Source: Candidatus Anderseniibacteriota bacterium (GTDB taxonomy: Bacteria > Patescibacteriota > Andersenbacteria > UBA10190). Taken from it: 64,000 nucleotides of DNA. Of this stretch, positions 15,147 to 63,848 are shown piece by piece. The stretch lies in NCBI GenBank assembly GCA_035288905.1, contig DATDYZ010000001.1, positions 19,172 through 83,171 on the forward strand, given 5' to 3'. Every line of letters begins with the position of its first letter. Positions within the stretch are counted from its first letter, which is position 1. A model generated the notes under the pieces. It was not told the DNA's origin. It worked only from the letters and a program-made list of their open reading frames with translations, and searched no databases. The position numbers and the translations under genes were made by a program.

Positions 15147-15449
15147 CCCCTCTCCCCAATTGGGGAGAGGGTTAGGGTGAGGGCAACATCGATGCAATGC
15201 TCTGCACTACTCCATTAATATTTTTCATCACCTCATCATTCGTAAACCTCACAACTCGTATACCGCACGCATTTAGATATGTAGTACGTTCTGTATCATA
15301 TGCTTGTCCTTTCGTCGCACGGGTGTTGATCGTGCTCTGTTATGTAATACTCCCACAATCATATTCTACACCCAAGTCATATTCCTCTTGGGTTGCCCTC
15401 ACCCTCCCGCCTGTTGGCGAGGAGCCCTCTCCCCAATTGGGGAGAGGGG
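15147..15449. mobile_element. MITE-like composite element. Terminal perfect palindromes CCCTCTCCCCAATTGGGGAGAGGG with inner inverted repeats GGGTGAGGGCAAC / GTTGCCCTCACCC flank about 200 bp.
   Basis: Seen directly. Shorter versions of the same module occur at 29983, 58754, 61430 and 63736. Confidence 0.65.
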
Positions 15450-26552: not shown

Positions 26553-28220
26553 ATGAAAAATGGGATTTGGAATATAGTTGCAGGGGATACTGTTATTGAG
26601 GATCAGGATGAATTGATTCGTGTGCTACTTCATAATCGCAACATCACCTCTGAGGGCAGCGAAGCTTTTTTTTCTTCTTCGTATATTCGTGATATTCATG
26701 ATCCATATGATTTGTATGATATGGAAAAAGCAGTGGAGCGCGTATATCGCGCAATAAAAAAGCAAGAAAGAATAGTTGTATATGGCGATTATGATGCAGA
26801 TGGTGTTACATCTACGGCAATTATGGTAGAAACACTTACTGCACTTGGTGCTCATGTATTTCCGTATTTGCCGCACAGGTACGATGATGGATACGGTTTA
26901 CATGGGAAAGTGTTGGAACAAATGCTCTCTGAATTTGAATTAGTAATCACTGTTGATTGTGGAGTGAGCAACCGGGAAGAAATAGCTATGCTACAAGCAG
27001 CTAAAAAAGACGTTATTATTGTTGACCATCACGAAATTCCTGAACAGCTTCCAGTTGCCTATGCAATTTTGCACCCACGGCATCCGAAAGGATTATATAG
27101 TTTTGGGCATCTGTGTGGGGCTGGTATGGCGTGGAAGTTTGCACAGGCATTGTTTCGCCATGCAGATTCTCTGTTTGCATCAGATCCTGATCGAGAAAAG
27201 TGGTTGCTTGATATTGTAATGATTGGGACTATTGCGGATGTAATGCCACTTGTTGGAGAAAATCGTGCCATTGTTCGATTTGGTAAAGATGTGTTACTAC
27301 GTACAAAGCATCCAGGAATTGCAGCACTACTGAAAGAATCTCGCATTAACGTATCAACGATAACTGCGGAAGATATTGCGTTTCGAATAGTGCCTTTGTT
27401 AAATGCCGCTGGGAGAATTGGCCACCCACAATCGGCTCTCAATGCGCTTATTGCGAAAACAAGCGATCAAGCAGATGCTGCAGTAAAAAAGCTAGTGCAG
27501 ATGAATAATGAGAGGCGGACACTGACAAAGAAAATGATGGATGAGGCGAATATCGAAATAGATCATAGTCTGCCGTTTGTGTTTATAGCTAATAGTAATT
27601 GGCCAGCAGGCATTGTTGGGCTTGTGGCTGGCCGCTTGGCTTCGCAGTTTGGAAAACCTGCATTTGTGGTAGGGGGGCATAGCTCACTATCACACTCTGT
27701 AGGGTCTGCACGGGGAGGCGGCAAAATAAACATTATGTCTGCGTTAGAAACAGTTCGCCACCATACTCTTAAGTTGGGCGGGCATAAGGCAGCAGCAGGG
27801 TTTTCTGTATTGCCCGAATATATAGATCGTATGAAACATGGGTTACGAGAGTATTTTGAATCTCAAGTATTAGAGCAGTCTCCGGTAGTTCATGAAGCCG
27901 ATGCTGTTATTTCTTCGCAACTTGTGTCGTGGGATACGGCGCGGGCACTTACAAAGTTTGAGCCGTTTGGTGAAGCGAACACAAGGCCATCTTTTGTTTT
28001 AAAGGGTTTGCGGCTTTTAGAGCGCAGAACGGTTGGGAAATCAAACGATCATATAAAGGCAAAACTTCTGGTAGGCGACCGTGAAATAGATGCAATAGGG
28101 TTTGGGCTCGGGGGGCAGGTACGTGTTCTTAAAAACACTGTAGACGTCTTGGCAAGTATAGGCGTAAATGAATTTCGTGGGCGAGAAAGCCTAGAGCTTC
28201 GTCTTACGGATATACGCTAA
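26553..28220 (+). CDS. recJ: Single-stranded-DNA-specific exonuclease RecJ (DHH/DHHA1)
   Basis: VYGDYDADGVTS, VDCG and DHH motifs. Confidence 0.87.
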   Translation: MKNGIWNIVAGDTVIEDQDELIRVLLHNRNITSEGSEAFFSSSYIRDIHDPYDLYDMEKAVERVYRAIKKQERIVVYGDYDADGVTSTAIMVETLTALGAHVFPYLPHRYDDGYGLHGKVLEQMLSEFELVITVDCGVSNREEIAMLQAAKKDVIIVDHHEIPEQLPVAYAILHPRHPKGLYSFGHLCGAGMAWKFAQALFRHADSLFASDPDREKWLLDIVMIGTIADVMPLVGENRAIVRFGKDVLLRTKHPGIAALLKESRINVSTITAEDIAFRIVPLLNAAGRIGHPQSALNALIAKTSDQADAAVKKLVQMNNERRTLTKKMMDEANIEIDHSLPFVFIANSNWPAGIVGLVAGRLASQFGKPAFVVGGHSSLSHSVGSARGGGKINIMSALETVRHHTLKLGGHKAAAGFSVLPEYIDRMKHGLREYFESQVLEQSPVVHEADAVISSQLVSWDTARALTKFEPFGEANTRPSFVLKGLRLLERRTVGKSNDHIKAKLLVGDREIDAIGFGLGGQVRVLKNTVDVLASIGVNEFRGRESLELRLTDIR

Positions 28221-28830
28221 TCATCATCAGGCCTGTCCCAATTGCAAGTCGTATTGCATGAGCGCGTGGTTCTTTTTGCACTACTGTAAAAAATTCAGTG
28301 AGTTTTTTGGCATGTGATAGGGTATTGTCCGCGATGATAATTCCATGCGGTGTAATTATTTGCATGGCATACTGAAAGTAGAGGGCATATTCTTCTTTGT
28401 TTGCATCGAGAAAAATGAAGTCGAAAGACGGAGGCTGTTTGTTTAGGTTGTCATTCCGGGCTTGCTTGCCGGCCATAGCCTTGGCGTCGGCTGGACCCGG
28501 AATCCACGCGCCTGGATCCCGGCTCGGGGGCCGGGATGACACTGCTAATTGCGACATGATTTCCACCGCATCTCCTTGTATCACCTCGATAGTTTCTGAT
28601 AATCCTTCTGTTGCAATATTTTCTTTTGCTAATTTCACTCGTTCGTCAAAAAATTCTATTGTCGTTATGTTTCCACCATAGAGAGATGCAACGTTTCCCA
28701 TAAGAATTGCTGAATATCCATTTGATGTACCAACCTCTAAAATATTCTTCGGTTTTTGTGCATGAATGAGAGCCTGGAGCACAGCGCCAGAATTTGGGTC
28801 AATATTCCAGTACTCATCTTGTGGTTTCAT
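28204..28830 (-). CDS. Class I SAM-dependent O-methyltransferase (CCoAOMT/YrrM-like) carrying an in-frame Family A repeat insertion
   Basis: ILEVGTSNGYS motif I and FDFIFLDANKEEY. Between them is VSSRPPSRDPGAWIPGPADAKAMAGKQARNDN, encoded by repeat A at 28450..28552. Confidence 0.8.
   Translation of the reverse strand: MKPQDEYWNIDPNSGAVLQALIHAQKPKNILEVGTSNGYSAILMGNVASLYGGNITTIEFFDERVKLAKENIATEGLSETIEVIQGDAVEIMSQLAVSSRPPSRDPGAWIPGPADAKAMAGKQARNDNLNKQPPSFDFIFLDANKEEYALYFQYAMQIITPHGIIIADNTLSHAKKLTEFFTVVQKEPRAHAIRLAIGTGLMMISVYP
28450..28552. repeat. Family A palindromic repeat (long form) inside the O-methyltransferase CDS
   Basis: GTCATTCCGGGC...CCGGCTCGGGGGCCGGGATGACAC. Confidence 0.8.
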
Positions 28831-28849: not shown

Positions 28850-29680
28850 ATGAATATTATTATTCGACTTTTTCTTTCTCTTATAAGTATATTGGCATTG
28901 TTTTATGTGGTTTTGCAATACCTGTTTCCTATACCTTGTAGCCAAATAATTTCGTATTCCATTGGAAATGTGGACAAGAAGTTCGGTCTTTCTCGGGATG
29001 ATTTTTTACGATCGATTCAGGGTGCAGAAAACGCATGGGAAAAGCCATTTGGTGCTCAGCTTTTCGCATATGATCCAAATGCTGCGTTTACCATAAACCT
29101 CTTATATGATAGTCGACAAAAAAGAACAGACCTAGTAAGGGTAGCTAAAAGTACTCTCAATGAAACATCAAAAACTCGCGAGGGCATCAAGCAGCAATAT
29201 GACAGTGCATACGAAAAATATTCACGAGCACTGAAGGTATATAATACACACGTTCAAGAGTATAAAAATGGTGCTTTTGTATGGGAAACACTCAAACAAG
29301 AAGAAGCAAATCTTAATACTCTTGGCGATCAGGTAAATAAGCTCGTAGATGACGAAAATAAAATTGTAAGAACATACAATACAAAGGTGGAGAAATTTCA
29401 AGATGAATTTTCTGAAGACAGTGAGTTTGCACAGGGCGAATATAACGGCAAGGCGGTTACTATTTATGAATTTACTAATTCGAAGGATTTACTGCTCGTA
29501 CTGGAACATGAACTTGGTCATGTGCTAGGGTTAGATCACGTACAAGATCCTTTCTCTATCATGTATTATCTTGGTCATAGCAACAATACGACACAGAGTG
29601 GCCCGACGGTCGATGATATTTCTATGCTTGCAGCGCAATGTAAGAAGACGTCATTTGGTGTCTTCCTTGATTGGCTATAA
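28850..29680 (+). CDS. Membrane-anchored matrixin/metzincin-like zinc metalloprotease (M10-like)
   Basis: N-terminal TM helix, the HELGHVLGLDHV zinc site (HExxHxxGxxH) and a Met-turn SIMYY. Trimmed from track ORF 28766. Confidence 0.75.
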   Translation: MNIIIRLFLSLISILALFYVVLQYLFPIPCSQIISYSIGNVDKKFGLSRDDFLRSIQGAENAWEKPFGAQLFAYDPNAAFTINLLYDSRQKRTDLVRVAKSTLNETSKTREGIKQQYDSAYEKYSRALKVYNTHVQEYKNGAFVWETLKQEEANLNTLGDQVNKLVDDENKIVRTYNTKVEKFQDEFSEDSEFAQGEYNGKAVTIYEFTNSKDLLLVLEHELGHVLGLDHVQDPFSIMYYLGHSNNTTQSGPTVDDISMLAAQCKKTSFGVFLDWL

Positions 29681-29726
29681 AAAAGGAGTACAATAAACGT
29701 ATTATTACTTTTTAATACATATCTCT

Positions 29727-29972
29727 ATGGAAAACAGTCCAATGGAAAAGAATTGCGAGTCATGCGGATCCGGAACATGTTCTGGAAATTGCGCTGCATG
29801 TAATTGCCCTCACCACAAGGCGATTCCAGTATTTATTATCTTAATTGCTGCAACATTCTTACTCGGAGAATGGGGAATGCTCGCACCATCTTCGGTAGGG
29901 GTTATCTGGCCTATTTTGCTCGGAGCAATTGGAGTTACAAAGCTTATGAAGAGCAAGTGTACCTGCTGCTAA
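29727..29972 (+). CDS. Small Cys-rich membrane protein: N-terminal CxxCxxxxCxxxCxxCxCxHH, two TM helices, C-terminal CTCC
   Basis: ORF of 81 aa. I recognise no family for it. Confidence 0.5.
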   Translation: MENSPMEKNCESCGSGTCSGNCAACNCPHHKAIPVFIILIAATFLLGEWGMLAPSSVGVIWPILLGAIGVTKLMKSKCTCC

Positions 29973-29982
29973 ATCCTTCTAC

Positions 29983-30022
29983 CGCCCTCTCCCTCGACGG
30001 GGAGAGGGATGGGGTGAGGGGT
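29983..30022. repeat. Family B palindromic repeat variant (CCCTCTCCCTCGACGGGGAGAGGG + GGGGTGAGGGG)
   Basis: Seen directly. Confidence 0.7.
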
Positions 30023-30030
30023 ATCGCGTT

Positions 30031-30444
30031 ATGAAACGAGCGACGTTATTCACAGACGGCGGGGCGAGGGGTAACCCGGGTCCCGCCGCAATCGGTTTTG
30101 TGCTTACTGGTATTGGAAGCGCGCCTATTTTATATAAAGAATATATTGGGAAAGGCACGAACAACCAGGCAGAGTATCGTGCGTTATTAGCGGGTATTAC
30201 TCGTGCAAAAAAAGAGGGAGTAAAAGATTTGTTGTGCTATTTAGATAGCGAATTAGTGGTAAAGCAGGTGCGAGGAGAATACAGAGTTAAAAATGAAGAG
30301 CTAAAACTTTTGCTTACAGAAATAAAAAAACTACTACCCGTTTTTGATTCTATAACATTCCAACACGTTCCGCGCGCTAAAAACGCTATTGCGGATAAGC
30401 TGGTGAATGAGGCGTTGGACTCCAATTTTGCAGATGGACTATAA
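30031..30444 (+). CDS. rnhA: Ribonuclease HI
   Basis: FTDGGARGNPGPAA, NNQAEYRAL and the DSELVVKQ catalytic DEDD pattern. Confidence 0.9.
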   Translation: MKRATLFTDGGARGNPGPAAIGFVLTGIGSAPILYKEYIGKGTNNQAEYRALLAGITRAKKEGVKDLLCYLDSELVVKQVRGEYRVKNEELKLLLTEIKKLLPVFDSITFQHVPRAKNAIADKLVNEALDSNFADGL

Positions 30445-30782
30445 GCCGGATTCTGTTAAAGGCAATCATCTGTCTTGTTCTGCTATCGCTAGCAGAATCT
30501 TTGCCCTCTACCTGCCCCGTTATTCACGAAGCGACTTGAGGTTGCACTCGGTGGGGTTTGCACCCTCGCCGTATTACTACGGCGCGGCGTGGGCTCTTAC
30601 CCCACGATTTCACCATTGCTAATAAAAGCTGTTTGTTTCTGTTGCGCTCTTCGCCCTGCAAGCAGGGTCCCTAGGCTTGCGCCTGGCAGACGTTATCTGC
30701 CACTGTTTTCTTGAGTGTCCGGACTTTCCTCTCAGGCCCTTCGATTTCTCTCAGGGTAAAGCGATTGCCCATCCATCTGCGT
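30425..30782 (-). ncRNA. rnpB: RNase P RNA (bacterial type), antisense to the last about 20 nt of rnhA
   Basis: The minus strand reads GAGGAAAGUCCGGAC (P4 5' strand), GGUAAGAGCCCAC, and ACAGAAUCCGGCUUAUAG near the 3' end. The P1 helix GCAGAUGGA / UCCAUCUGC defines the ends. Confidence 0.75.
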
Positions 30783-46123: not shown

Positions 46124-47938
46124 ATGGAAATACGCAATTTTTGTATTATCGCGCATATTGATCATGGAAAGAGCACACTGGCAGACCGGATGCTCGAGTT
46201 AACGCATACCGTCGAAATGAGAGATATGCAGGCGCAGCTACTAGACTCTATGGAGCTGGAGCGAGAAAAAGGAATAACCATTAAGCTTCAACCAGTACGC
46301 ATGGAGCATAAAGGCTTTGTATTAAATTTAATAGATACTCCCGGGCATGTAGATTTCCAGTACGAAGTATCAAGAAGTCTGAAAGCAGTTGAAGGGGCTA
46401 TTTTACTTGTAGATGCTACGCAAGGTGTGCAAGCACAGACGGTTTCTAATTTATATTTTGCACTCGAAAAAAATCTGGAAATAATTCCTGTTATTAATAA
46501 AATAGACTTACCAGCTGCAGACGTTGAGGGCGTATCTCAAGAAATTATTAATCTTTTGGGTGCAAAAAAAGAAGATATACTTCATATATCTGCGAAGACG
46601 GGACAGGGGGTTCCGGAATTATTGGATGCAGTGATTGCGCGGGTGCCGGCGGCCACGCGCCCCTCACCCCCTGCCACGGCAGGGCCCTCTCCCAGAACGG
46701 GAGAGGGGAGCGAAAACCTGCGGGCGCTTATATTTGATTCGGTGTACGACGACTACAAGGGTGTGGTTGCATATGTGCGGGTTATGGAAGGAAGCGTTTC
46801 GCAAGGCGATGCGATTACGTTTTTAGGGACAGATGTTGATGATAGGGTAGTTGAAGTGGGCGTATTTAAACCACAATTTACTTCGCGTGAAAAAATTGGA
46901 GCGGGAGAAATTGGATATATTGCAACTGGCTTAAAAAATATTCGACAGGCTCGCGTGGGCGATACAATTACAAAAACAGTAGAAAAACATGAAGTGGAGC
47001 AACTCCCCGGCTTTGCAATTCCTCAACCGAAAGTCTTTGCTGGATTATACCCTGTAGATGGAAGCGACTTCCCTGTATTGCGCGAAGCAATGAGCCGACT
47101 GCAACTCAATGATTCTAGTTTAACTGCTCATATGGAGCGAAGCCATGCACTCGGGCAAGGTTTTCGATGTGGGTTTTTAGGAATGCTCCATTTAGAAATT
47201 GTGCAAGAGAGGCTGCGAAGAGAATTCGACGTAGAGTTGGTAGTCACGACTCCGAGCGTGCTCTACCACGTGGTGTTAACCTCCGGCGAGAAAAAAGATA
47301 TTCATACACCAGATGCGTTTCCGGATCCGAGTTTTGTCACATCTATGGAAGAGCAATGGTGTAAGGCAGATATATTACTTCCTCAGAAGTATCTCGGAGC
47401 CGTATTTGAAGTTATGGCACAACATGAAGGGAATTTAATTTCGCAAGAAGTATTGGGAACAGACCGCATGCTATTGCATTATGAATTGCCACTTCGAGAA
47501 CTTGTTGTCGATTTGTATGATCAACTAAAATCTATAACAAGTGGATATGGTTCGTTAAGTTATGATGTGATTGGTTGGAGGTCGGCAGACGTGGTGAAGC
47601 TGACAATCTTAATGAATCATGAAGTTGCTGAAGCGTTGTCATTAATTATTCCACGTACCAAAGCAGAAGCAATCGGGCGCCGAGTAGTCGATAAGCTAAA
47701 GGATCTTGTGCCGCGACAACAATTCGCAGTGCCTATTCAAGCAGCAATCGGTGGCAAAGTTGTAGCTCGCGAGACGGTACCCGCGCTTCGAAAAGACGTG
47801 ACGGCAAAGCTGTATGGAGGAGACGTAACTCGAAAACGAAAACTCTTAGATAAGCAGAAAAAAGGAAAAAAACGCCTTTCCACGAAAGGGTCTATCAATT
47901 TACCCCCAGAAGCATATATTCAGTTGCTCAAAAGGTGA
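46124..47938 (+). CDS. lepA: Translation elongation factor 4 (LepA), carrying an in-frame Family B repeat insertion
   Basis: IIAHIDHGKSTLADR and DTPGHVDF G-motifs, and the C-terminal LepA domain. The extra segment ATRPSPPATAGPSPRTGEGSE lies before the conserved LRALIFDS. Confidence 0.92.
   Translation: MEIRNFCIIAHIDHGKSTLADRMLELTHTVEMRDMQAQLLDSMELEREKGITIKLQPVRMEHKGFVLNLIDTPGHVDFQYEVSRSLKAVEGAILLVDATQGVQAQTVSNLYFALEKNLEIIPVINKIDLPAADVEGVSQEIINLLGAKKEDILHISAKTGQGVPELLDAVIARVPAATRPSPPATAGPSPRTGEGSENLRALIFDSVYDDYKGVVAYVRVMEGSVSQGDAITFLGTDVDDRVVEVGVFKPQFTSREKIGAGEIGYIATGLKNIRQARVGDTITKTVEKHEVEQLPGFAIPQPKVFAGLYPVDGSDFPVLREAMSRLQLNDSSLTAHMERSHALGQGFRCGFLGMLHLEIVQERLRREFDVELVVTTPSVLYHVVLTSGEKKDIHTPDAFPDPSFVTSMEEQWCKADILLPQKYLGAVFEVMAQHEGNLISQEVLGTDRMLLHYELPLRELVVDLYDQLKSITSGYGSLSYDVIGWRSADVVKLTILMNHEVAEALSLIIPRTKAEAIGRRVVDKLKDLVPRQQFAVPIQAAIGGKVVARETVPALRKDVTAKLYGGDVTRKRKLLDKQKKGKKRLSTKGSINLPPEAYIQLLKR
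46659..46712. repeat. Family B-type palindrome (CCCTCTCCCAGAACGGGAGAGGGG with GC-rich flanks) inside the lepA CDS
   Basis: Seen directly. It sits in-frame. Confidence 0.7.
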
Positions 47939-61429: not shown

Positions 61430-61541
61430 TCCCCTCTCCCCAATTGGGGAGAGGGTTAGGGAGAGGGCAACCCACGACGCAACGACAGCCCTCACCCCTG
61501 CCTGCGGGCTAGGCCCTCTCCCCCATATGGGTAGAGGGGAA
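61430..61541. repeat. Family B composite repeat (two palindromes flanking GGGCAAC..ACGACAGCCCTCACCCC)
   Basis: Seen directly. Confidence 0.75.
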
Positions 61542-63735: not shown

Positions 63736-63848
63736 TCCCTTCTCCCCAATTGGGGAGAAGGTGCCTCGCCAGAGCGGGCGGATGAGGGCAGGACACAACG
63801 CTACAACAGCCCTCACCCCAACCCTCTCCCCCCATGGGGAGAGGGGGT
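63736..63848. repeat. Family B composite repeat
   Basis: CCCTTCTCCCCAATTGGGGAGAAGG ... ACAACAGCCCTCACCCC ... CCCTCTCCCCCCATGGGGAGAGGGGG. Confidence 0.75.

What the first reader, a model, noticed from the sequence alone, without database searches (positions are those of the whole stretch)
28850..29972. Membrane-anchored matrixin-like metalloprotease followed by a small Cys-rich two-TM peptide
The 276-aa protein has an N-terminal TM anchor and a clean metzincin site, HELGHVLGLDH plus Met-turn. That is rare outside eukaryote-associated or secreted bacterial proteases. Sixty bp downstream is an 81-aa ORF with an N-terminal cluster CESCGSGTCSGNCAACNCPHH, two TM helices and a C-terminal CTCC. The pair could be a protease with a metal-binding or redox partner, or a processed signalling or bacteriocin-like peptide.
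Basis: partly seen in the sequence, partly recalled or inferred. Interest (0 to 1): 0.5.

Follow-up and report, generated by a model that had tools for sequence, protein, structure and literature searches.

The report
Surface metalloprotease beside unrelated Cys-rich membrane protein
Both genes are real: an ordinary (already annotated) membrane-anchored matrixin-like zinc protease of a Patescibacteria genome, and next to it a conserved, uncharacterised 81-residue membrane protein with cytoplasm-facing Cys/His tails that probably bind metal. They are neighbours through local gene order and do not look like a working pair.

Summary
A 276-aa ORF (28850-29680) has an N-terminal TM helix, HELGHVLGLDH and a Met-turn. 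An 81-aa Cys-rich two-TM ORF (29727-29972) follows after 46 bp, not 60. The window is Candidatus Andersenbacteria (Patescibacteria).

The protease passes Pfam Peptidase_M10, and NCBI already names it "matrixin family metalloprotease". Its model (pLDDT 95) is an MMP/snapalysin-like core with a 100-aa helical hairpin where MMPs carry the S-loop. It has no pro-domain and one covarying Cys pair. TM-anchored relatives occur across Patescibacteria, so it is not rare.

The small ORF is a real gene (dN/dS about 0.1). It belongs to an uncurated family of 54-120-aa proteins (161 clusters at E<=1e-10). Each has a LiaI/LiaF-like TM hairpin flanked by a near-invariant CxCxHH and CxCC. The tails are rich in Cys, His, Met and Lys and are predicted to be cytoplasmic.

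The pairing does not hold. The matrixin is a neighbour in only 10 of 78 distinct loci, all in one fully syntenic clade. Three contigs from close relatives keep the small gene without the protease. Three distant protease homologues that I checked lack the peptide. The two active parts also face opposite sides of the membrane.

Most likely these are two independent genes, and the small one is a membrane-tethered soft-metal (Zn/Cu) binding protein. That function is inferred, not shown.

The parts
28850..29680 (+). CDS of a 276-aa type-II membrane-anchored matrixin-like (M10-type) zinc metalloprotease; coordinates include the stop codon
28853..28924 (+). N-terminal transmembrane anchor (residues 2-25), only about 8 residues before the first strand of the catalytic domain, so there is no pro-domain
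   Evidence: Helix 2-25 in the AF2 model. A hydrophobic N-terminal segment is present in all 37 homologues.
29111..29410 (+). Antiparallel helical hairpin (residues 88-187) inserted between strands 3 and 4 of the metzincin core, where MMPs carry the S-loop with its structural Zn/Ca sites
29507..29563 (+). Zinc-binding consensus HELGHVLGLDH (residues 220-230) and Met-turn (SIMYY, Met238)
   Evidence: H220, E221, H224, H230 and M238 are invariant; G227 is present in 36 of 37.
29667..29694 (+). Sigma-70-like promoter match (TTGATT-16-TACAAT) at the end of the protease ORF, 33 nt upstream of the small ORF. It is a possible own promoter and is a consensus match only.
   Evidence: The region holds 7 such matches against 5.6 expected, so on its own this is weak.
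29727..29972 (+). CDS of an 81-aa integral membrane protein: Cys/His-rich N-tail, LiaI/LiaF-like TM hairpin, C-terminal CxCC
   Evidence: Homologues and invariant columns. dN/dS about 0.1. Pfam LiaF-TM 25.1 bits, just under the cut-off of 27, and all 21 diverse family members hit PF18917/PF22570.
29754..29816 (+). N-terminal tail residues 10-30. It holds a clade-specific metallothionein-like extension (CESCGSGTCSGNCAA) followed by the family-wide CNCPHH motif (C25, C27, H29, H30).
   Evidence: C25, C27 and H30 are invariant and H29 nearly so across 21 diverse members. The extension is variable and absent in the roughly 60-aa short forms.
29820..29951 (+). Two transmembrane helices (about residues 32-48 and 54-75) with an invariant W61-P62
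   Evidence: AF2 helices 28-48 and 54-75 with pLDDT above 90. Conservation.
29958..29969 (+). C-terminal CTCC (C78, C80, C81), preceded by a Lys-rich juxtamembrane stretch
   Evidence: Invariant in alignments A1 and A3. A CxCC match is present in 125 of 150 family representatives, and several of the others show a CxCY variant.
29985..30021 (.). GC-rich palindromic repeat element (CCCTCTCCC-loop-GGGAGAGGG plus GGGGTGAGGGG) between the small ORF and RNase H. It is context, not part of either gene.
   Evidence: Sequence. Further copies elsewhere in the window, with none expected by chance.

Best explanation
These are two independent, genuine genes of a Candidatus Andersenbacteria (Patescibacteria) genome. 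They sit side by side because of lineage-specific gene order, not because they form a system.

Gene 1 is a type-II membrane-anchored, cell-surface zinc endopeptidase. Its core is a minimal MMP/snapalysin-like metzincin, with HExxHxxGxxH, a Met-turn and one ectodomain disulfide (C30-C264). There is no cysteine-switch pro-domain. A 100-aa antiparallel helical hairpin replaces the S-loop. It most likely cleaves extracellular or surface proteins, for nutrient scavenging or envelope and host-contact remodelling. The substrate is inferred, not shown.

Gene 2 is a small integral membrane protein. A LiaI/LiaF-like TM hairpin holds two Lys-rich, Cys/His(/Met)-rich tails together on the cytoplasmic face. 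There CxCxHH from the N-tail and CxCC from the C-tail most likely form a thiolate/imidazole site for a soft metal (Zn2+ or Cu+). In this clade a metallothionein-like N-extension adds more ligands. Its role would be metal buffering or sensing, or metal-dependent stapling of the hairpin.

Shown: gene reality, fold, motifs, conservation, and lack of conserved linkage. Inferred: topology, metal binding and physiological roles.
For: Protease:
- Pfam M10 above threshold.
- Catalytic residues invariant in 37 of 37 homologues.
- AF2 pLDDT 94.9.
- Foldseek top 50 hits are all MMP catalytic domains.
- C30 and C264 are both present in 36 of 37 sequences and both absent in the remaining one, which fits an extracytoplasmic disulfide.

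Small protein:
- dN/dS 0.09-0.11.
- 161 clusters at 50% identity with E<=1e-10, all 54-120 aa.
- Invariant C25, C27, H30, W61, P62, C78, C80 and C81.
- The tails hold 16-27% Cys, 8% His (N-tail) and 6-7% Met, against 0.7, 2.2 and 2.2% in the window's long ORFs.
- Mean K+R is 1.9 in the N-tail, 0.14 in the loop and 2.4 in the C-tail, which gives N-in/C-in by the positive-inside rule.
- The hairpin is modelled with confidence and the tails are not, as expected for sites that need a metal.

Independence of the two genes:
- The matrixin lies within two genes of the small gene in 10 of 78 distinct loci, all in one syntenic clade. RNase H is a commoner neighbour, at 23 of 78.
- L015, L042 and L043 lack the protease.
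- The protease homologues P0032, P0054 and P0029 lack the peptide.
Against: - No metal-binding experiment or metal-aware model was possible.
- No metal transporter or regulator is a recurrent neighbour.
- The two genes are on the same strand, 46 nt apart, with no convincing terminator between them, so co-transcription in this lineage is possible.
- In Staskawiczbacteria a different membrane-anchored Zn peptidase (M23) occupies the equivalent position upstream. That could hint at a peptidase link.
- Two lineages place the small gene beside thiol-disulfide genes: CcdA plus a TlpA-like protein in L027, and a DsbA-like protein in L032. That would fit extracytoplasmic cysteines better.
Confidence: 0.6

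Rival explanations
1. The small protein is a dedicated partner of membrane-anchored zinc peptidases. It could act as a zinc chaperone or gate, a membrane co-anchor, or a regulator. It would serve the M10 enzyme here and the M23 enzyme in Staskawiczbacteria.
For: - Same strand with a 46-nt gap.
- A metzincin ORF lies directly upstream in 11 of the 12 long-form (Andersenbacteria-like) genome loci.
- In Staskawiczbacteria-like loci a TM-anchored M23 peptidase sits in the same block. It is directly adjacent in L029 and one gene away in L026 and L028.
- Cys/His tails could hold Zn.
Against: - All supporting loci belong to two syntenic blocks (RecJ-peptidase-RNaseH/small-RNase P RNA), so they are not independent events.
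- Three contigs from close relatives lost the protease but kept the small gene.
- 68 of 78 distinct loci have no matrixin within two genes, and only 3 have M23.
- The distant matrixin homologues checked lack the peptide.
- The tails are predicted cytoplasmic and the catalytic domain external.
Confidence: 0.1
2. The cysteines are redox-active rather than metal ligands. The protein would be a small thiol-disulfide relay or a substrate, possibly with its tails outside the cell.
For: - The small gene follows CcdA (DsbD_TM) and a TlpA-like thioredoxin in L027.
- It lies two genes upstream of a DsbA-like protein (and a possible VKOR-like ORF) in L032.
- CxC and CC motifs can be redox-active.
Against: - Only 2 of 78 lineages show this context.
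- The invariant cysteines number five, an odd count, and come with invariant His and enriched Met. That pattern fits metal ligation.
- The positive-inside rule places the tails in the reducing cytoplasm.
Confidence: 0.1
3. The Cys/His motifs are purely structural, for example a Zn or Fe-S staple or an oligomerisation site. The protein's real job would then be that of other LiaI/LiaF-type hairpins: a membrane anchor or envelope-stress component.
For: All 21 diverse members match PF18917/PF22570, with a best E-value of 2e-9. W61-P62 and the hairpin are the best conserved parts.
Against: - No LiaH/PspA, LiaS/R or PspC genes recur nearby.
- The tails expand with extra Cys, His and Met in many lineages, which suggests ligand capacity is under selection.
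Confidence: 0.15
4. The small ORF is a ribosomal peptide precursor (bacteriocin or signal) processed by the protease, or a potempin-like cognate inhibitor of it.
For: It is short, Cys-rich and adjacent to a protease. Small ORFs beside T. forsythia KLIKK peptidases encode their inhibitors (PMC9890683).
Against: - It has two conserved TM helices and the tails are the variable parts.
- No leader or cleavage motif, maturase or ABC exporter appears among the ORFs of the 26-33 kb region.
- Potempins are upstream beta-barrel lipoproteins. This is a downstream helical hairpin without a lipobox.
- The family mostly occurs without any protease neighbour.
Confidence: 0.03

Closest known systems
Matrixin (MEROPS M10A) catalytic domains, e.g. 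MMP-9, MMP-2, MMP-7, MMP-12, and the bacterial MMP-like karilysin
   Different: - There is no PRCGxPD pro-domain, because a TM helix directly precedes strand 1.
- The S-loop with its structural Zn/Ca sites is replaced by a 100-139-aa helical hairpin.
- The residue after the third His is Val/Asn/Leu, whereas MMPs have Ser there (own knowledge).
- One N-to-C disulfide is present.
- The protein is anchored by an N-terminal TM helix rather than secreted.
Snapalysin (Streptomyces small neutral protease, M7), a minimal metzincin
   Different: Snapalysin is soluble and secreted, has no helical insertion, and scores only E 0.1 on the NCBIfam model.
LiaI/LiaF-like transmembrane hairpin (Pfam PF18917, PF22570)
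   Same: The two-helix hairpin with the WPxxLI(x)xG signature. All 21 diverse family members match.
   Different: LiaF and LiaI are larger envelope-stress proteins without Cys/His tails. Here the hairpin is the whole protein apart from the two Cys/His tails. The window's copy scores 25.1 bits, under the cut-off of 27.
MerE / MerF small two-TM mercury transporters
   Same: About 80 aa with two TM helices. MerE has a CxC pair followed by His (C28, C30, H31) that is essential for Hg transport (PMC5715351). This is an architectural analogy for thiol-mediated handling of a soft metal at the membrane.
   Different: No detectable homology: hhalign probability is 0.6%, there is no Pfam MerE/MerF hit at E<=1, and there is no PDB sequence hit. 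No mer operon is present. The motif here lies outside the helix, and there is an additional C-terminal CxCC.
Bacterial metallothioneins (SmtA/BmtA, MymT)
   Same: Short, dense CxC/CxxC/CC clusters with His. The tail composition is 16-27% Cys.
   Different: There is no sequence match to any curated family. This protein is membrane-embedded, whereas known bacterial metallothioneins are soluble (own knowledge).
Potempin-KLIKK peptidase gene pairs of Tannerella forsythia
   Same: A small ORF adjacent to a metzincin gene (karilysin is MMP-like) (PMC9890683).
   Different: Potempins lie upstream and are beta-barrel outer-membrane lipoproteins and inhibitors. Here the small ORF is downstream, is a helical TM hairpin, and is not co-conserved with the protease.

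Membership tests
Matrixin / Peptidase_M10 (PF00413) | Profile match above the curated threshold | tested here: met
   41.9 bits against a cut-off of 24, E 1.2e-10. All 45 homologues carry a precomputed PF00413 hit.
Matrixin / Peptidase_M10 (PF00413) | HExxHxxGxxH zinc site and Met-turn | tested here: met
   H220, E221, H224, H230 and M238 in 37 of 37 sequences; G227 in 36 of 37.
Matrixin / Peptidase_M10 (PF00413) | Metzincin/MMP catalytic fold | tested here: met
Matrixin / Peptidase_M10 (PF00413) | Cysteine-switch pro-domain (PRCGxPD) conferring latency | tested here: not met
   The TM helix (residues 2-25) is followed after about 8 residues by strand 1, with no pro-domain. The only N-terminal Cys (C30) covaries with C264 as a disulfide pair.
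Matrixin / Peptidase_M10 (PF00413) | S-loop with structural zinc (3 His + Asp) and calcium sites between strands 3 and 4/5 | tested here: not met
   That segment is two long helices (88-139 and 145-187) in the model. No His cluster is present in it.
Matrixin / Peptidase_M10 (PF00413) | Ser immediately after the third zinc-binding His (family-specific residue; own knowledge of metzincin classification) | tested here: not met
   Position 231 is V (17), N (9), L (4), A/I/T (2 each) or M (1) in the 37 sequences, and never S.
LiaI-LiaF-like TM hairpin (PF18917 / PF22570) | Profile match above the curated threshold | tested here: inconclusive
   The window's protein scores 25.1 and 19.5 bits against a cut-off of 27. 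All 21 diverse relatives match, with a best E-value of 2e-9, and several homologues carry precomputed PF22570 hits.
MerE / MerF mercury transporters | Sequence or profile homology | tested here: not met
   hhalign of A3 against MerE gives probability 0.6%. The MerE query was validated at 98.7% identity against plasmid records. No Pfam hit and no PDB hit.
MerE / MerF mercury transporters | Location in a mer operon (merR, merA, merP) | tested here: not met
   The neighbours here are an O-methyltransferase, RecJ, RNase H and RNase P RNA. No mer-like gene was recognised among the neighbour clusters, though most of those clusters were not annotated.
Metallothionein | Match to a curated metallothionein family | tested here: not met
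   No Pfam or NCBIfam metallothionein hit at E<=1. The resemblance is compositional only.
Metallothionein | Stoichiometric thiolate-cluster metal binding | not testable with these tools
   Needs ICP-MS or ESI-MS on purified protein or peptides.
Potempin-type peptidase inhibitor | Lipoprotein signal peptide, beta-barrel fold, ORF immediately upstream of and co-conserved with the peptidase | tested here: not met
   The N-terminus is hydrophilic, the protein is a helical hairpin, it lies downstream, and it is not co-conserved. Definition taken from PMC9890683.
RiPP / bacteriocin precursor | Leader-core organisation with adjacent maturase or exporter | tested here: not met
   No such genes appear in the 26-33 kb region. 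The conserved part is the TM hairpin.

The most novel reading that the evidence does not exclude
The 81-aa protein may be the founding member of a new, mostly Patescibacteria-wide class of membrane-embedded soft-metal handlers. In this reading a TM hairpin presents the CxCxHH and CxCC tails, with metallothionein-like extensions. It passes or gates Zn/Cu at the membrane, convergently with MerE/MerF. In some lineages it services the surface zinc peptidase encoded next to it (M10 here, M23 in Staskawiczbacteria).
Probability: 0.1. Interest if true: 0.65.

Novelty: new variant of a known kind. Interest (0 to 1): 0.3.

Why it matters
The protease is routine annotation. Its one notable feature is a large coiled-coil hairpin grafted into a pro-domain-less MMP core. 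That could interest metzincin structural biologists, and people studying how episymbiotic Patescibacteria act on host surfaces.

The small protein matters more. It is a conserved, strongly selected family of 54-120-residue proteins with no curated model of its own. It has seven near-invariant metal-type ligands, and it occurs in organisms with minimal genomes, where retained genes tend to be important. If it binds metal, it would be a rare example of a membrane-tethered metallothionein or chaperone-like protein in bacteria. It would also give a handle on metal homeostasis in an uncultured radiation.

Showing that the pair is only synteny avoids a misleading "protease plus partner" annotation.

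Tried and rejected
- PDB sequence search with the peptide profile gave only noise at E above 7 and no MerF.
- NCBIfam gave no family for the peptide.
- The Foldseek afdb50 library was unavailable, so structural relatives of the hairpin-bearing protease outside the PDB were not surveyed.
- The first MerE plasmid record fetched was frameshifted. I used the typed MerE sequence instead, which tblastn validated at 98.7% identity.
- Literature searches found nothing specific. The terms were Patescibacteria plus matrixin; DUF5668/PF18917; and CPR plus cysteine-rich small membrane protein.
- I looked for metal transporters beside the small gene. The large neighbours, judged by eye from their N-termini, look like housekeeping genes: BipA-like GTPase, RecQ-like, Fmt-like, IF3-like, histidine kinase. 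They were not scanned against Pfam.
- The terminator scan found no convincing terminator between the two genes.
- Rejected readings: bacteriocin/RiPP precursor, potempin-like inhibitor, MerE/MerF homologue, cysteine-switch role for C30.

Full report
**1. What is there**

ORF 28850-29680 (+) encodes 276 aa. ORF 29727-29972 (+) encodes 81 aa. The intergenic gap is 46 nt, not 60.

The locus reads enolase, RecJ, O-methyltransferase (minus strand), protease, small ORF, RNase H, RNase P RNA (minus strand, 30426-30780, 211 bits), sugar transferase, glycosyltransferase.

The protease is 100% identical to a protein that NCBI names [quoted passage not shown]. The window is therefore from a Patescibacteria (CPR) genome.

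**2. The protease**

It passes Pfam Peptidase_M10 at 41.9 bits against a cut-off of 24. In an alignment of 37 homologues at 25-57% identity, H220, E221, H224, H230 and Met238 of the Met-turn are invariant. G227 is present in 36 of 37.

The AlphaFold model built on that alignment is very confident, with pLDDT 94.9.
- A TM helix spans residues 2-25.
- About 8 residues later the metzincin core begins: strand 34-41, helix 49-67, then strands 72-74 and 81-84.
- An antiparallel helical hairpin follows (88-139 and 145-187).
- The core resumes with strands 196-198 and 202-205.
- The active-site helix is 211-225, followed by the C-terminal helices.

Three classical matrixin features are absent.
- There is no cysteine-switch pro-domain.
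- There is no S-loop with structural Zn/Ca sites. The hairpin takes its place and is 100-139 aa across the family.
- There is no Ser after the third His.

Most family members have exactly two cysteines, C30 and C264. They are present together in 36 of 37 sequences and lost together in the other one. This fits a disulfide tying the N- and C-ends of an extracytoplasmic domain.

The protein is thus a type-II anchored, surface-exposed, minimal MMP-like enzyme. Named relatives come from Andersen-, Moran- and Falkowbacteria MAGs, so "rare" is not justified. Its substrate is unknown. Extracellular protein degradation or surface remodelling is an inference.

**3. The small ORF is a real gene and belongs to a sizeable family**

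The word-indexed search found 17 homologues. Codon-level comparison with four orthologues gives dN/dS of 0.09-0.11 for the three where it could be computed, and synonymous sites are at or near saturation in all four. Assemblies carrying the identical protease call the same 81-aa gene.

An exhaustive profile search of 1.84 billion representatives found 398 clusters at E<=1e-3 and 161 at E<=1e-10. All 150 listed are 54-120 aa. Genome and metagenome scans retrieved 28 and 80 loci. Most named ones are Patescibacteria: Andersen-, Staskawicz- and Paceibacterota. A few sit in MAGs labelled otherwise.

Across 21 diverse members the invariant positions are C25, C27, H30, L39, I40, L45, W61, P62, L64, C78, C80 and C81. 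H29, P34 and K72 are nearly invariant. The core is therefore CxCxHH-[K], a TM hairpin, then [K-rich]-CxCC.

All 21 members match the Pfam LiaI/LiaF-like TM hairpin models. The window's copy is just under threshold. No other Pfam or NCBIfam family matches.

AlphaFold models the two helices (28-48 and 54-75) at pLDDT above 90 and leaves the tails at low confidence.

**4. Topology and chemistry of the tails (inference from computed statistics)**

These figures come from 99 family representatives that carry all three motifs. Mean K+R is 1.9 in the last 12 residues of the N-tail, 0.14 in the inter-helix loop and 2.4 in the C-tail. By the positive-inside rule both tails are cytoplasmic and the short loop is outside.

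Across 138 representatives, the tails contain 16% (N) and 27% (C) Cys, 8% His (N) and 6-7% Met. The long ORFs of the window contain 0.7, 2.2 and 2.2%. Many members add Cys-, His- or Met-rich extensions such as MGGM, CxxC and HxH runs.

The invariant cysteines number five, an odd count. They come with two histidines and are held together by a hairpin on the reducing side of the membrane. I read this as a soft-metal (Zn2+/Cu+) site, not as disulfides. This is the step I could not test.

**5. Is it a pair?**

The evidence says no.

- Within the Andersenbacteria-like clade the entire block enolase-RecJ-(OMT)-protease-small-RNaseH-sugar transferase is syntenic. Adjacency there carries no independent information.
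- L015 and L043 carry a peptide 80% identical to the window's, and L042 carries one 83% identical. All three read OMT(-), small gene, RNase H, with no protease between.
- More distant small-protein homologues sit in other contexts. One is after RNase H and before RNase P RNA, with an M23 peptidase upstream (Staskawiczbacteria). Others are convergent with a bPH_2 gene, after CcdA plus a TlpA-like gene, upstream of a DsbA-like gene, or among apparently housekeeping genes.
- After collapsing to 78 distinct loci, the neighbours within two genes are RNase H in 23, bPH_2 in 12, matrixin in 10 (one clade) and OMT in 8.
- Protease homologues at 31-38% identity (P0032, P0054, P0029) have no such small gene beside them.
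- The protease's active domain is outside the cell and the peptide's Cys tails are predicted inside.

A weak counter-signal exists. In Staskawiczbacteria another TM-anchored Zn peptidase (M23) occupies the position of the matrixin, and it is directly adjacent to the small gene in L029. This lies within one conserved block, so I treat it as a low-probability lead.

**6. Comparison with known systems**

- The protease works like, and is a divergent member of, the matrixin/M10 group. It fails three classical sub-features (see the membership table).
- The small protein resembles MerE/MerF in architecture. MerE has two TM helices and an essential C28-x-C30-H31 (PMC5715351). It is not homologous: hhalign probability is 0.6%.
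- It resembles metallothioneins only in composition.
- It is not potempin-like. Potempins are upstream beta-barrel lipoprotein inhibitors of KLIKK peptidases (PMC9890683).
- It lacks every hallmark of a RiPP precursor.

**7. Verdict**

The protease is an already-annotated member of a known kind with an unusual helical insertion. The small protein belongs to an uncharacterised but widespread family, and cytoplasm-facing metal binding is the best hypothesis for it. The "pair" is a product of local synteny. Interest is modest (0.3) and comes almost entirely from the small-protein family.

Noticed in passing
window 29985-30021; also 15163-15184, 46660-46710, 61447-61468, 61516-61538, 63809-63830 (-): A GC-rich palindromic repeat (CCCTCTCCC-loop-GGGAGAGGG, often followed by GGGGTGAGGGG) recurs at least five times in this otherwise AT-rich Patescibacteria window. 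Shuffles give zero expected matches. One copy sits exactly between the small ORF's stop codon and the RNase H start codon.
   Followed up: partly
window 28437-28545 (-), inside the O-methyltransferase CDS 28204-28830: The O-methyltransferase carries an in-frame GC-rich insertion of about 36 aa (SRPPSRDPGAWIPGPADAKAMAGKQARNDNLNKQP) with internal inverted repeats. It is absent from the 171-173-aa orthologues in L015 and L001. L006 has a different insert of about 30 aa at the same site. It looks like a palindromic element inserted in frame.
   Followed up: partly
window 30426-30780 (-): A bacterial class A RNase P RNA gene (211.5 bits). It overlaps the last 19 nt of the RNase H CDS (30031-30444) on the opposite strand. 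The same RNase H, small gene and RNase P-like arrangement appears to recur in Staskawiczbacteria loci, where I judged it only from a conserved spurious ORF in that region.
   Followed up: partly
L026, L028, L031, L034, L049, L050, L070, L072, L074, L094, L098 and the Andersenbacteria loci: An RVT_3-type RNase H is the most frequent neighbour of the small Cys/His protein, in 23 of 78 distinct loci. It is always on the same strand but in either order: small then RNase H in Andersenbacteria, RNase H then small in Staskawiczbacteria. Whether this is old synteny or a functional link is unexplained.
   Followed up: partly
L027 2029-3920; L032 4167-5948: In two lineages the small gene lies beside extracytoplasmic thiol-disulfide genes. 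In L027 these are a CcdA/DsbD_TM protein plus an AhpC/TSA-Thioredoxin_10 protein. In L032 they are bPH_2, a DsbA-like protein and a possible VKOR-like ORF.
   Followed up: partly
L035, L037, L039, L040: In Dehalococcoidia and Coprothermobacterota MAGs the WPILLIAIG-type hairpin appears inside much larger proteins without Cys tails, and in L035/L037 it is repeated several times. This shows the hairpin is a reusable membrane module.
   Followed up: no
window 1-64000: ARAGORN found no tRNA gene, and RNase P RNA is the only Rfam family above its gathering score in the whole 64-kb window.
   Followed up: no
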